A DNA stretch of 64,000 bases from Carcharhinus amblyrhynchos (Eukaryota). The first letter of the stretch is position 1. The number at the start of each line of letters is the position of its first letter. Positions 20,717-27,024 of the stretch are shown in pieces. The stretch covers positions 20,398,001 through 20,462,000 of the forward strand of contig OZ336900.1 in assembly GCA_965287045.1 (NCBI GenBank), given 5' to 3'. Below the pieces are notes generated by a model. That model had not been told where the DNA came from and made no database searches. It saw nothing but the letters and a program-made list of their open reading frames with translations. Position numbers and translations under genes: made by a program.

Positions 20717-20915
20717 TTGAAGCTGCAGCAGTATTTGGAACCATCTTCTTCCTGTTCTTGGTTCAAGCCACTGTTCATCTCTGGATGAAGAGACATGCCT
20801 GTTACGAAAGCTCAATCTTCACTTTGTTGGGGAACCTAATTTATTGTCAACTGACGACAACGGTAACGACCAAGCTCCACTTCTATACTCCTCCAAACAA
20901 CCAGTAGCTCCAAAA
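20717..20915 (+). pseudogene. SYT15: SYT15-like transmembrane exon remnant with a 1-nt frameshift
   Basis: tttcag| acceptor; EAAAVFGTIFFLFLVQATVHLWMKRHACYE then TAC GAA AG CTC (YE[E]L missing one base) resembles recalled human [45 protein letters not shown] at 20916, though the true 3' end may be further on. Confidence 0.55.
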
Positions 20916-21302
20916 GTAAGTGACCCTGGAACTGAAGACTCGACTTAAGGCCTGCAGGAGTTGCAATATGTCAGTACTTCACTTTCACATGAGTTTCTAT
21001 CCAAACAAATGGGACACTCTCCTCCCCCCTGCCAGCTAAAGGGAGCTCAAATAGGGTTTAGCTTGAGGGAAGCTTTACCTGGTGCTTTTCTGTTATGAAT
21101 CCCTGCACAAAGAGACTGATAAGTCTGTATGTATTGACAATGGTGTCACAACCTCACGAGAAGACAGAATGCAAAAATATAATTGAGTGAGAGGGTTTCT
21201 TGCAGCTTCGATGGAAATTTAAGAGGGAATTTATGCTTCTTTAGCATTTATTATGTCCTCAGTATATCCCAAGAATCGCTGAATTTCTTCAGAAGCATTG
21301 TG

Positions 21303-22381
21303 ATGGGTGGCACAGTGGTTAGCACTGCTGCCTTACAACACCAAGGATTTCCAGTTCAGATCACTGTCCATGTGACATCTGCATGTTCTCTGGGTGGCTA
21401 TGTGGGTTTCCTCCAGGTGCTCTGGTTCCCTCCCAGAGTCTGAAAGACGTGCTGGCTAGGTGCAATGGCCGTGCTAAATTCTCCCTTAGTGTAACCTGAT
21501 TAGGCTCCGGAATGTGGCAACAAGGGGATTTTTGCAGTAATTTCATTGCAGTGTTAATACAACCCAGCACGGGAAACAGGCCCTTTGGCCCAATGAGCCC
21601 GTGCCGCCATCTTAACAAAGCATTTTCCTACACCTACCTTGCCCCATGTGTATGCTAATGGTATCCCTATTGTAACCAGATTCAGGGGAGAATAGCGTAG
21701 GGTCAATTTGGTACACCAATCAGCCTAAAAGCACATCTTAGGGGTGTGGGAGGAAACCGGAGCACCCGGAGGAAACCCATGCAACCACAGGGAGAATGCA
21801 CAAACTCCTGCAGACACTGGCCCAAATCCACGTATCTGCACAGCTAGCAGTGTTAGTCACTGAGCTGTTGTGGTGCCCATCTGCTGGTCCAGGTTCAAGC
21901 ACACAACACGACGCAAAGTACTAGGCCACTCTCAAAACATCCAAGAGCAGCCCACGCATGACCCACCGTGTGCGTGCCCCTCGTTTGACAACAAGGTGGA
22001 CCGACACATCTGCGGATGAAAAGAGACAAAACATTAACATGTAGTATTACATTTCCAGTATCGTCCCGAGGCTCTGACCCTTTTTAAAACTGTCGCCTAT
22101 ATCCCTCCATCCCTGTGTCACTCGTGTGCCTGTCTAAGTAAACCTTAAACAAGTCCAGCATGCCTGTCTCCACCACCTTACTTGGTAGCGCATTCCATAC
22201 CCCCACGACCCTCTGTGTGAAAAACCTCCCTCTAGTATCCATATTATACTTCTCCCCCCTCACCCTTAGCTTGTGACCCCTTGTGATTTTTGTCTCCAAT
22301 CTAGGAAAAAGCCTGCCACTGTTGACTCTATCTATACCCTTCATTATTTTATACACCTATTTTATAAGCCTACCTGTGACA
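21303..22381 (+). mobile_element. V-SINE split by an ~805-bp minus-strand CR1+SINE composite (21559-22363)
   Basis: host SINE stops at gcagtgttaat (21558) and resumes taagcctacctgtgac (~22365); insert carries CR1 ORF2 end (22084-22356) and a V-SINE (21560-21878). Confidence 0.75.
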
Positions 22382-23661
22382 AGACAGGAAAATGTAATTG
22401 AAATAGAGCCCCCACCATGATCTTACTCAATGATGGAGTAGGTTTGAGGAACTATATGATCAACTATAACTCCTGATTCATATCTTGAGTGTGTTACCAC
22501 TGACCAAGACTGAAATGTCTACATAGATTGCCAACAGAGCTCAAGTCTGCTGGTAAAGTTCAGTCCCTGCTATATGTTTCACACACTGAATATTCAATTT
22601 TTGAGAAGTTCCACATGTTTACAGTTTCAACTTTTTCTAGCAGCCAGTAAAACATTTTCTACAAACAGGTCTCAGTTACCTATAAACACATCTGTCAGTC
22701 TATCATTCCAGCAGTTCTATGGTCAGACTAATGTTGTCAATGTCACAGTTTGATGTTACAAAATGCTTTCCGTTCCAGAACTGAAAGTACACATTATTAT
22801 TCACTAAAGTTTCAAGCACGAACATGGTTTTATCTAGTGAACAACAAATATACTGGAGCTGATAATCCAGCTGACACTACGCTGGAATATTTAAATACAG
22901 ACGTCCATTATTAAAAACAATACCTCACTGAGTTTATGGGTAGGGTCTGGAATATATAAATACAGACGTCCACTATTAAAAACAATACCTCTATTTTCAG
23001 CCTGCATTTTACTTTAACGAGTTACTTTGTTTGGATTTCAATGGCTCCTGTGTTTATTACCACAGATGAGTGACCTTGAATAAGGAAAGCTTTATATAAC
23101 CTCACTTCTTATTTCCTTGTCTGTGCTGATGGGCAACAGGCGAGATGATCCAGTTGCCAGTGATGACCTTTGTACAGGGCACATCACAGGGTTGTGGGCC
23201 TGGAAGAGGTTGTACAGATCGGCGAGGCCATGCTGAGAATTTTAAATTTGAGGAACTGCTAAACTGGGAGGCAACGTAGGTCAGAAAATACATGGGTGAT
23301 GTCTTGAGTTGGATACAGGTAGCAGTTTTCGCTGAGCTGAAGTTTACAGAGGATGGAAGATGCTGGCCAGAGTAGCACTGGAATAATTGAATCCATTTAA
23401 GGGTTTTCACAACAGATTGGTTGAGTCAGGGACAGAGATGAGTGACACAGATATCATCAGCTTACAGCTAGAATCCAACGATTTCTGGCTGGTTAGTTTT
23501 AGTCCTGCACTGAATGACACATCTTAAGCACTGCTTGATTGGTTTATTGGGATGAACGAATTCAATGGTATGAATATCCTTTTCTCAGACCACTACTGTT
23601 CATATTACCCTCTCACCTCTGACAATTTAATCCTTGCCTTTCTCTTCCTCTTCAACAACAG

Positions 23662-23902
23662 GAGAATGTGTCTTAAATCCAGAGGAATACAGTAAGACAA
23701 ATCATCCAGAAAGAAATAATAGAAAGTTTGGGCTCATTGAGGAGCAGGAAACAGAATGGTTTCTGTTCAAAGTAAAAAAATCTGTCATCACAACCAAAGA
23801 CTTCAATCCTCTGTGAAAATCCCCTTCTATTTGACAAAACATGTTCCATCTGTCAAGAACCAAACACCAAACTCACAATGGAATGAAAGATTTGTTTTCC
23901 AG
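23662..23902 (+). pseudogene. SYT15: SYT15-like C2A-domain exon remnant with frameshift and deletions
   Basis: acaacag| ... TTCCAG|gtgagt; GECVLNPEEYSKTNHPE...EQETEWFL...NPL/(frameshift at ~23813)VKI...NSQWNERFVFQ vs human INPE...PEDKSETDFPD...EQEAERLL...SPLVKL...NPQFDEHFIFQ, with the donor right after FxFQ. Confidence 0.72.
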
Positions 23903-25770: not shown

Positions 25771-26139
25771 ACAGCCAGAATTCTCTGGTCTTGCTGCAGT
25801 GAAAGGAGTTTTGGTTGAGTGCCACATTCTTCATTCTCGCTTGTAGTGGCGGTGGGGCATGAGAAGATGAACAAACTAAAGGTGTTTGCAAACAGCTGCA
25901 TGCACTCATCAAGAGATTGCAGCAGCTACTCAAGGGCTGGGATGTCCTGGTGCTGAAGGATATTGTATGTTCTTACAATACCTCTGACATGAAATGCTGT
26001 ATTGCAGCTTTCAGATCATGTCTGTTGAGTGTTTTATTTTCATGGTGGTGATTTATACACAAATACAGTGCTTTCTAATACTGTCATTCAAATAACATTT
26101 CCTAATAAACAGCTTGTCATCTGTAGCAAAGTGCAGACC

Positions 26140-26625
26140 CTGTGATACTATAGCCTGTAACACTGCACCTGTTATACAATTTACAGAACTGCTAATATTG
26201 TAGTCTATAATATTGTGCATGTTATTCACTGTTCAGAAATTGATGCTGTAGTTTATAACACTGTACTTGTTAAACACTGCAGAATTGGTGATACTATAAT
26301 TTATAACTGTACATATTATACAATTTACAGAAATGGTGATATTGCAATCTATAATATTGTATGTTGTACACCATGAAGAATTGTTGTTTATAATACTGTT
26401 CCTGTTGTACACTGCAAAATTGGTGATACTGTATTCTATAACACTGTCCACTACAACTGCAGAATTGGTGATACTGTGTTCTGTAACTCTGTACCTGTTA
26501 TAACTGTGTCCTGGTGATATTGTATTCTGTAACTCTGTACCTGTTATAACTGTGTCCTGGTGATTCATATATTCTGTAACTCTACCTGTTATAACTGTAG
26601 AATTGATGTTGTGCTGTAACACACA
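26140..26625. repeat. degenerate ~46-50 bp tandem repeat
   Basis: recurring actgcagaattggtgatactgtattctataacactgtacctgtta. Confidence 0.8.
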
Positions 26626-26637
26626 TGTAATATTTAG

Positions 26638-27024
26638 CACTAAGAGAACTGTAATCTCAAATCATAATAAAGTCTAAATCATCAGAAAAAAAAATCAACC
26701 ATGTCATTCTGAATTTCTCCTTGTATTTAATTACCTGGAGGAAGCTTGAAACAAAGGAAGTCTCATGCAGCACCCAGTTCCCTCCTACGGATCTGTGTAA
26801 TTGCCTCATGCAATCAGTTATGGAAACAAAGAGCAATTGTGCTGCTTGGACTTTCAGTTTGAAAATCCTGATTGATCCTGAGTTGTGGACACATAACAGC
26901 TGCAGAAATCGCTGAACATGGGAAAAGCTGTTTGTTTAGTGAGGCAATCCAAACTGGAACCGAAGTTGCTCAGGTATTGTGGTGCTAAACCATGCAGATA
27001 TTTTGAGTTAGCTAATCTGCAGTG
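26638..27024 (+). pseudogene. possible highly decayed further SYT15 exons (about 26638-26759 and 26900-27024)
   Basis: short matches only: ITWRKLE vs IWRDLE, AEHG vs SEFG, GIVVL vs TVVVL; acag acceptor at 26899 and GTAAG donor at 27025. Confidence 0.3.

What the first reader, a model, noticed from the sequence alone, without database searches (positions are those of the whole stretch)
20717..27024. Decaying SYT15 remnant facing SHLD2: probable unitary gene loss in this shark lineage
Seen: two plus-strand segments keep AG/GT splice signals. One encodes a single-pass transmembrane stretch ending in YE[E]L; the other encodes the start of a C2 domain ending NSQWNERFVFQ|gtgagt. Each carries a 1-nt deletion (~20809 and ~23813), and the C2 exon also has internal deletions. 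Later exons are barely recognisable. Established (from recall): in mouse the order is Gprin2(-), Syt15(+), Shld2(-), Glud1(+), the same position and orientation as here. Inference: an intron-containing SYT15 pseudogene at its ancestral locus, invisible to the ORF track and likely missed by annotation.
Basis: partly seen in the sequence, partly recalled or inferred. Interest (0 to 1): 0.75.

Follow-up and report, generated by a model that had tools for sequence, protein, structure and literature searches.

The report
Fossil SYT15 gene in a shark
This shark carries only the broken, partly deleted remains of the membrane-trafficking gene synaptotagmin-15 at the gene's usual address, an ordinary kind of gene loss that may be old and shared with other sharks.

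Summary
Mostly right. The window is from a carcharhiniform-like shark (SHLD2 93% identical to Mustelus). The first three are AG/GT-bounded and start in the intron phases seen in vertebrate Syt15. All four carry stops. The C2A exon is 55 nt short, and the three exons that should follow it were not found; repeats fill the gap. SHLD2's seven exons have no gap or stop, so assembly error is unlikely. Corrections: the remnant probably ends near 25.9 kb, not 27024; the proposed 20915->23662 junction skips an exon; the 20809 deletion is plausible but not shown. A published mouse-catshark orthologue table also lacks Syt15, so the loss may be old and shared. Limits: no SYT15 protein could be fetched, so the paralogue call rests on by-eye comparison with a published alignment, motif scans, phases and synteny; 'unitary' is untested. 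A new case of a known kind.

The parts
20717..20915 (+). SYT15 transmembrane exon remnant (coding exon 2), phase 1 in, phase 2 out; TAG at 20905 in the transmembrane frame; possible 1-nt deletion near 20809, compensated later
   Evidence: Splice sites, length and frames. Likeness to vertebrate Syt15 by eye; phase-1 start from the chicken, lizard and opossum entries
22779..22939 (+).
   Evidence: Motif scan: best plus-strand site of the window under BLOSUM (5 of 200 regional shuffles reach it, 52 of 200 window-wide) but not above the null under the neutral-decay score. In register with both neighbouring exons
22882..22991 (+). Local 45-bp duplication of the exon-3 tail (22882-22926 and 22947-22991, 43 of 45 identical)
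23662..23902 (+). SYT15 pre-C2A motif and first half of C2A (exon 4); internal deletions, frameshift near 23813, TGA at 23814
   Evidence: Motif at its end is the best site on both strands; 0 of 200 shuffles reach it window-wide under the neutral-decay score, 3 of 200 under BLOSUM
23903..25775 (.). Repeat-filled gap where exons 5-7 should lie: minisatellite 23919-23978, minus-strand CR1-like LINE pieces 24196-25181 and about 25431-25760, unidentified element 25182-25390
   Evidence: 0 of 108 frames of 30 aa or more in 23903-29250 match Pfam C2
25800..25915 (+). SYT15 last coding exon remnant (exon 8); TAG at 25844, at least two frame switches; boundaries approximate
   Evidence: Neutral-decay motif scan: 20.0 bits ending at 25907, next best site on either strand 14.5; 0 of 200 regional and 3 of 200 window-wide shuffles reach it. 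Only 15 of 200 regional shuffles under BLOSUM; no PDB match
26750..27024 (+). Doubtful: stretch with a faint likeness to exon 7, downstream of the last exon; chance or a displaced fragment
   Evidence: 4 of 200 regional but 39 of 200 window-wide shuffles reach the score; 12 and 121 of 200 under BLOSUM; no Pfam C2 or PDB hit
29246..48682 (-). SHLD2, last seven coding exons, intact; synteny anchor and assembly-quality control
   Evidence: Pfam SHLD2_C E=1.6e-20 and 2.3e-15; 367 of 393 residues identical to Mustelus asterias P0001, 0 gaps, 0 stops

Best explanation
This is a non-processed pseudogene of SYT15 at the gene's ancestral place, tail to tail with SHLD2. It does nothing as a protein gene. 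Shown: four collinear plus-strand remnants, stops in each, a 55-nt-short C2A exon, no detectable exons 5-7, repeats in their place. Inferred: after an inactivating event in an ancestral shark the gene decayed neutrally by substitutions, small indels, a local duplication, LINE insertion and a deletion that removed the second half of C2A and most of C2B. Any spliced transcript would stop at 20905, before both C2 domains, with further junctions downstream (a nonsense-mediated-decay target, from established knowledge). Further inferred: no working copy remains in the genome, and the loss predates the split from catsharks.
For: Exon order and splice phases agree with three boundaries readable from PMC2823689: phase 1 before the transmembrane exon (entries starting with one unknown base, and a 7-nt first exon in chicken), a boundary at the start of exon 3 (platypus entry starting with two unknown bases), and phase 1 at exon 4 (human variant 6 begins there after two residues). 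C2 signal from three tools. Syt15 motifs for exons 4 and 8 score best at the expected places. By eye, in the last 16 codons of the exon-8 block 8 residues match the tetrapod rows, one matching codon has lost a base, and 6 of the other 7 are one base from a matching codon, as neutral decay would give. Neighbour order in turkey; GPRIN2-SYT15 adjacent in human. SHLD2 control. Catshark table: Shld2, Gprin2, Glud1 and 13 of the 17 mouse Syt genes present, Syt15 absent.
Against: No search returned a SYT15 protein, so there is no tblastn, reciprocal hit or tree. The Pfam, PDB and Atlas hits are weak and say only 'C2'. The first half of exon 4 and the transmembrane exon hit nothing. The four motifs were chosen after I had seen the likeness. 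The exon-3 motif fails under one of two scores, the exon-8 motif is marginal under the other, and an exon-7-like match lies out of order. No convincing first coding exon or CpG island was found upstream. The catshark table also lacks Syt5, Syt8 and Syt11, so absence from it is not proof of loss.
Confidence: 0.82

Rival explanations
1. Duplicated pseudogene: SYT15 was copied elsewhere, the new copy works, and the copy at the old address decayed.
For: The rest of the genome was not seen. SYT15 does duplicate: human has SYT15 and SYT15B.
Against: The catshark proteome has no reciprocal best hit for mouse Syt15, although a 43.7%-identical Syt13 was caught. Searches that found SHLD2 from 12 cartilaginous fish species found no SYT15 with the remnant pieces, which is weak evidence given their low sensitivity.
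Confidence: 0.08
2. The remnant is kept as a spliced non-coding RNA, or as a short single-pass peptide from the open transmembrane frame.
For: Five well-placed splice sites are intact, two donors are near-perfect, exons 2 and 3 stay in register and the transmembrane frame is open for 62 codons.
Against: At a rough 20% decay (by-eye estimate) ten splice bases survive by chance about one time in ten, and two of three exons stay in register about one time in four; the exons were also noticed partly through their splice sites. No first exon or CpG island found; no Rfam match in 1-30000.
Confidence: 0.05
3. Assembly or sequencing error hides an intact SYT15.
For: No reads were available; the gap after exon 4 is repeat-rich and could be collapsed.
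Against: 1185 nt of SHLD2 exons have 0 gaps and 0 stops, whereas 718 nt of remnant carry stops in all four exons, multi-codon deletions and many residue changes, which base-calling errors do not give.
Confidence: 0.02
4. The segments are chance likenesses, or the remains of another C2 gene.
For: All library hits are weak and generic; the SYT15 call has no alignment statistic.
Against: Four collinear segments, matching phases, Syt15-type motifs and the expected neighbour together. By eye the Syt17, Syt13 and Syt8-like sequences shown beside Syt15 do not carry these motifs.
Confidence: 0.03

Closest known systems
Vertebrate SYT15 (synaptotagmin-15; alignment of 13 species in PMC2823689, additional file 29)
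   Same: N-terminal transmembrane exon, linker exon, conserved motif before C2A, first half of C2A and the C-terminal block, in order, with matching intron phases, beside SHLD2.
   Different: Stops in all four exons, frameshifts, a 55-nt-short C2A exon, exons 5-7 and the 7-nt first coding exon not found; no protein can be made past the transmembrane exon.
Unitary pseudogenes of vertebrates, such as primate GULO and UOX (recalled, not from a call)
   Same: Disabled, intron-bearing gene left at its orthologous locus while other lineages keep it working.
   Different: Absence of a working copy was not tested here, and no phenotype is attached: SYT15 function is described as poorly understood (PMC12611992, passage).
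Gene losses already reported in cartilaginous fish (PXR, PMC6539745; possible AQP11 pseudogene, PMC10889150; seen as search listings with abstract starts only)
   Same: Lineage-specific loss or decay of a conserved vertebrate gene in sharks.
   Different: Another gene family; I found no paper on SYT15 in sharks.
SYT14L, the retroposed human SYT14 pseudogene (PMC2823689, passage)
   Same: A synaptotagmin pseudogene.
   Different: That one is a retroposed copy on another chromosome with a working parent; this one keeps introns and sits at the parent locus.

Membership tests
Unitary pseudogene | Homologous to a gene that is intact in other lineages | tested here: met
   By-eye match, motif scans, weak C2 hits; no full alignment statistic
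Unitary pseudogene | Disabling lesions | tested here: met
   TAG 20905, TAA 22912, TGA 23814, TAG 25844; exon 4 frameshift; exons 5-7 not found
Unitary pseudogene | At the orthologous locus | tested here: met
   SHLD2 adjacent; order in turkey. One flank only; gene orientations in other species are recalled; FAM35A = SHLD2 is recalled
Unitary pseudogene | No working copy elsewhere in the genome | not testable with these tools
   Only the window is available; indirect support from the catshark table
Unitary pseudogene | Lesions confirmed by reads or a second genome | tested here: inconclusive
   Indirect only: neighbouring SHLD2 exons are error-free
SYT15 | N-terminal single transmembrane segment | tested here: met
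   Hydrophobic stretch in 20719-20793, by eye; no predictor run
SYT15 | Conserved motif just upstream of C2A, then C2A | tested here: met
   Degenerate motif at the start of exon 4 by eye; C2 signal at its end
SYT15 | Complete tandem C2A and C2B | tested here: not met
   0 of 108 frames in 23903-29250 match Pfam C2; only the last-exon block is detectable. Expected of a decayed copy
SYT15 | Conserved intron positions and phases | tested here: met
   Three acceptor boundaries agree; the exon-4 donor position and those of exons 5-8 are recalled, as the intron bars of the PDF are not in its text
SYT15 | Reciprocal best hit or tree placement with SYT15 | not testable with these tools
   No SYT15 protein was retrieved
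Processed (retroposed) pseudogene | Introns absent | tested here: not met
   Exons are separated by 1.9, 0.7 and 1.9 kb with AG/GT ends

The most novel reading that the evidence does not exclude
The protein gene died long ago in a common ancestor of many sharks, but its first exons are still transcribed and spliced under selection, as a non-coding RNA converging on the 3' end of the DNA-repair gene SHLD2 or as a single-pass peptide of about 65 residues from the open transmembrane frame. That would be an exapted synaptotagmin remnant in sharks.
Probability: 0.06. Interest if true: 0.62.

Novelty: new member of a known kind. Interest (0 to 1): 0.35.

Why it matters
SYT15 is kept from invertebrates to mammals (PMC2823689) yet its function is poorly understood (PMC12611992), so a vertebrate group that lives without it bounds how essential it is. 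If the same lesions occur in other sharks, the remnant is a fossil-gene marker for shark relationships and a neutrally decaying yardstick in a slowly evolving group. It also warns annotators that a missing syt15 in shark gene sets can be a real loss. It is not a new mechanism, and no trait is tied to the loss.

Tried and rejected
Getting a SYT15 protein: the search for homologous proteins with the exon-4 tail found no candidate; with four pieces pooled, 19 candidates and none at E<=10; the representatives search gave one hit, P0018, a repetitive hypothetical protein with no C2 domain, rejected as chance. A proxy test on SHLD2 had suggested that pooling two pieces raises the score. Atlas search with the first half of exon 4: no usable hit. 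Pfam on three whole plus-strand frames of 20401-29400 with stops as X: 0 families, although the short piece alone hits C2, so that scan is insensitive. Pfam on 108 frames downstream of exon 4: no C2, 8 unrelated matches at E 0.03-0.09 taken as chance. PDB: exon-8 and exon-7 candidates gave nothing; the pooled profile gave 4 C2 and 4 unrelated rows of 8; the longer exon-4 piece gave 1 C2 and 2 unrelated rows of 3. A second last-exon candidate at about 27140-27260 was rejected (7.7 bits against 20.0). First-exon pattern searches gave 6 and 5 candidates, none convincing. Supplements of PMC12770505 (3 of 4 files), PMC11433378, PMC13188829 and PMC4362833 had no hit for any term, controls included, so they are uninformative; that of PMC11979771 could not be read. 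Folding, complex prediction and the prokaryote, phage and plasmid collections were not used, as they do not bear on a decayed shark gene. The metagenome and viral contig collections stayed unchecked.
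Full report
Setting. The window is repeat-rich vertebrate DNA; its longest frames are CR1-like LINE pieces. Seven minus-strand exons from 48682 to 29246 splice at GT-AG sites into an unbroken frame, 367 of 393 residues identical to Mustelus asterias SHLD2 with no gap or stop. One exon is 93% identical to Mustelus, 83% to Scyliorhinus torazame, 80% to Carcharodon and 62% to Callorhinchus, so the animal is most likely a carcharhiniform shark (inference). Residues 1-522 of SHLD2 have no hit in the window and presumably lie beyond 64000. 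SHLD2 gives both the synteny anchor and a control for assembly quality.

Observation. Their donors are in the top 0.6% and 0.3% of GT sites in 20-26.2 kb. The tail of the second is C2-like by Pfam (E=0.0074, under the cut-off), by PDB (14 of 15 weak matches are C2 proteins) and by the Atlas (23 of 30 hits). Each signal is weak and names no paralogue.

Identity. No search returned a SYT15 protein, so I compared the window's translations by eye with the vertebrate Syt15 alignment of PMC2823689 (additional file 29, part 1 of 2; 7 of 13 Syt15 places in additional file 3; main text as passages). The comparison places the transmembrane exon and the C2A exon and shows two more: a linker exon at 22779-22939 and a last-exon remnant at about 25800-25915. 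With their natural splice sites the first three exons run phase 1-2, 2-1 and 1-0 and join in register; two compatible junctions have a chance of 1 in 9. The three acceptor boundaries agree with what the paper's entries show: a 7-nt first exon in chicken and entries that begin with one unknown base, a platypus entry that begins at exon 3 with two unknown bases, and a human variant that enters exon 4 after two residues. The positions of later introns are recalled.

Motif tests. Four short motifs from that alignment were scanned over both strands with frameshifts allowed, against 200 blockwise shuffles. Under BLOSUM the regional counts reaching the observed score were 5 (exon 3, at 22827), 0 (exon 4, 23908), 12 (exon 7, 26773) and 15 (exon 8, 25907) of 200; window-wide 52, 3, 121 and 15 (the last for a better-scoring site at 37962). 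Under a neutral-decay score exon 4 (18.5 bits) and exon 8 (20.0 bits) are the best sites on either strand, with 0 and 3 of 200 window-wide; exon 7 is marginal (4 regional, 39 window-wide); the exon-3 site falls to 9.8 bits, below the null mean, and another site at 22950 scores best. The motifs were picked after seeing the likeness, so these counts flatter. Exon 4 is solid, exon 8 good, exon 3 rests on motif plus position plus phase, and the exon-7-like stretch lies downstream of the last exon, lacks a pyrimidine tract by eye and is treated as doubtful.

Lesions. Stops: TAG 20905, TAA 22912, TGA 23814, TAG 25844. Exon 4 is 241 nt against 296 counted from the chicken row, a net 1-nt shift near 23813 plus 18 codons. 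The deletion proposed at 20809 fits a motif by eye, but the exon's length is in register, so it would need a compensating loss; either way the transmembrane frame stops at 20905. A 45-bp duplication copies the tail of exon 3. Between exon 4 and exon 8, 1.9 kb hold a minisatellite, CR1-like pieces and one unidentified element, and 0 of 108 frames of 30 aa or more in 23903-29250 match C2. Exons 5-7 appear deleted, though heavy decay cannot be excluded. No convincing first exon was found. Against 0 lesions in 1185 nt of SHLD2, this density and variety in 718 nt is not assembly noise.

Synteny and spread. A turkey gene list reads GPRIN2, SYT15, FAM35A, GLUD1 (PMC7460020, one passage), and SYT15 is GPRIN2's neighbour in human (PMC10924726, passages). 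Only the SHLD2 flank was tested here. In the genome-wide mouse-catshark reciprocal-best-hit table of PMC13200729 (13,169 pairs from NCBI annotations; method passage, supplement hits) Shld2, Gprin2, Glud1, five Sytl genes and 13 of the 17 mouse Syt genes (the 17 is recalled) have a partner; Syt5, Syt8, Syt11 and Syt15 do not. The first three have close paralogues that can defeat reciprocal hits (recalled); Syt15 does not, and a 43.7%-identical Syt13 was caught. This suggests, without proving, that the loss is shared with catsharks and so old.

How it works. It most likely does nothing: a gene inactivated once and then eroded by substitutions, indels, LINE insertion and a multi-exon deletion. 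The lesions are shown; their order, neutrality, age and the absence of another copy are inferred. The surviving splice sites leave a small chance of a kept transcript, but chance survival is not unlikely at a rough 20% decay.

Literature. Ten searches (listings and abstract starts) showed no report of SYT15 loss in cartilaginous fish; the 3 papers holding both 'syt15' and 'shark' concern other matters by title and abstract. The library lacks most subscription papers, bioRxiv supplements were closed, and gene-loss tables in unseen supplements may already list it. PMC2823689's main text does not mention sharks. SYT15 is described as poorly understood, non-neuronal and probably calcium-independent (PMC12611992 and PMC12820372, passages).

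Verdict. A real SYT15 pseudogene at its ancestral locus (about 0.9), probably unitary and old (about 0.8 together), apparently unreported but of a well-known kind. Interest 0.35.

Noticed in passing
window 1710-2300, minus strand: Unique, fairly GC-rich stretch ending in a consensus donor on the minus strand at about 1709; it could be a non-coding first exon of a gene leaving the window to the left, possibly GPRIN2. No Pfam or Rfam match.
   Followed up: partly
window 48682-64000: No hit for the N-terminal 522 residues of SHLD2: the intron upstream of the first exon seen is over 15 kb, or the large exon is missing from this assembly.
   Followed up: no
window 16786-18178, plus strand: Fairly well preserved CR1-like reverse-transcriptase piece in two overlapping frames (310 and 156 aa); used as the query for older copies.
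   Followed up: partly
window 25182-25390: GC-rich element of about 210 bp with two short internal inverted repeats, lying between CR1-like pieces; no second copy in the window.
   Followed up: partly
window 26121-26669: AT-rich tandem array with a 46-bp period in its best part, just downstream of the last-exon remnant.
   Followed up: no
window 23903-23929: The intron after exon 4 reads on in frame with a likeness to the start of the next Syt15 exon; most likely a coincidence of the donor consensus and the minisatellite that starts at 23919.
   Followed up: partly
window 27605-28666: Two open frames (208 and 135 aa) without Pfam match that look like pieces of a decayed transposon; not identified.
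   Followed up: no
PMC13200729 supplement, not the window: Syt5, Syt8 and Syt11 also lack a catshark reciprocal best hit; the catshark Glud1 and Gprin2 partners have close LOC numbers, as neighbours often do.
   Followed up: no
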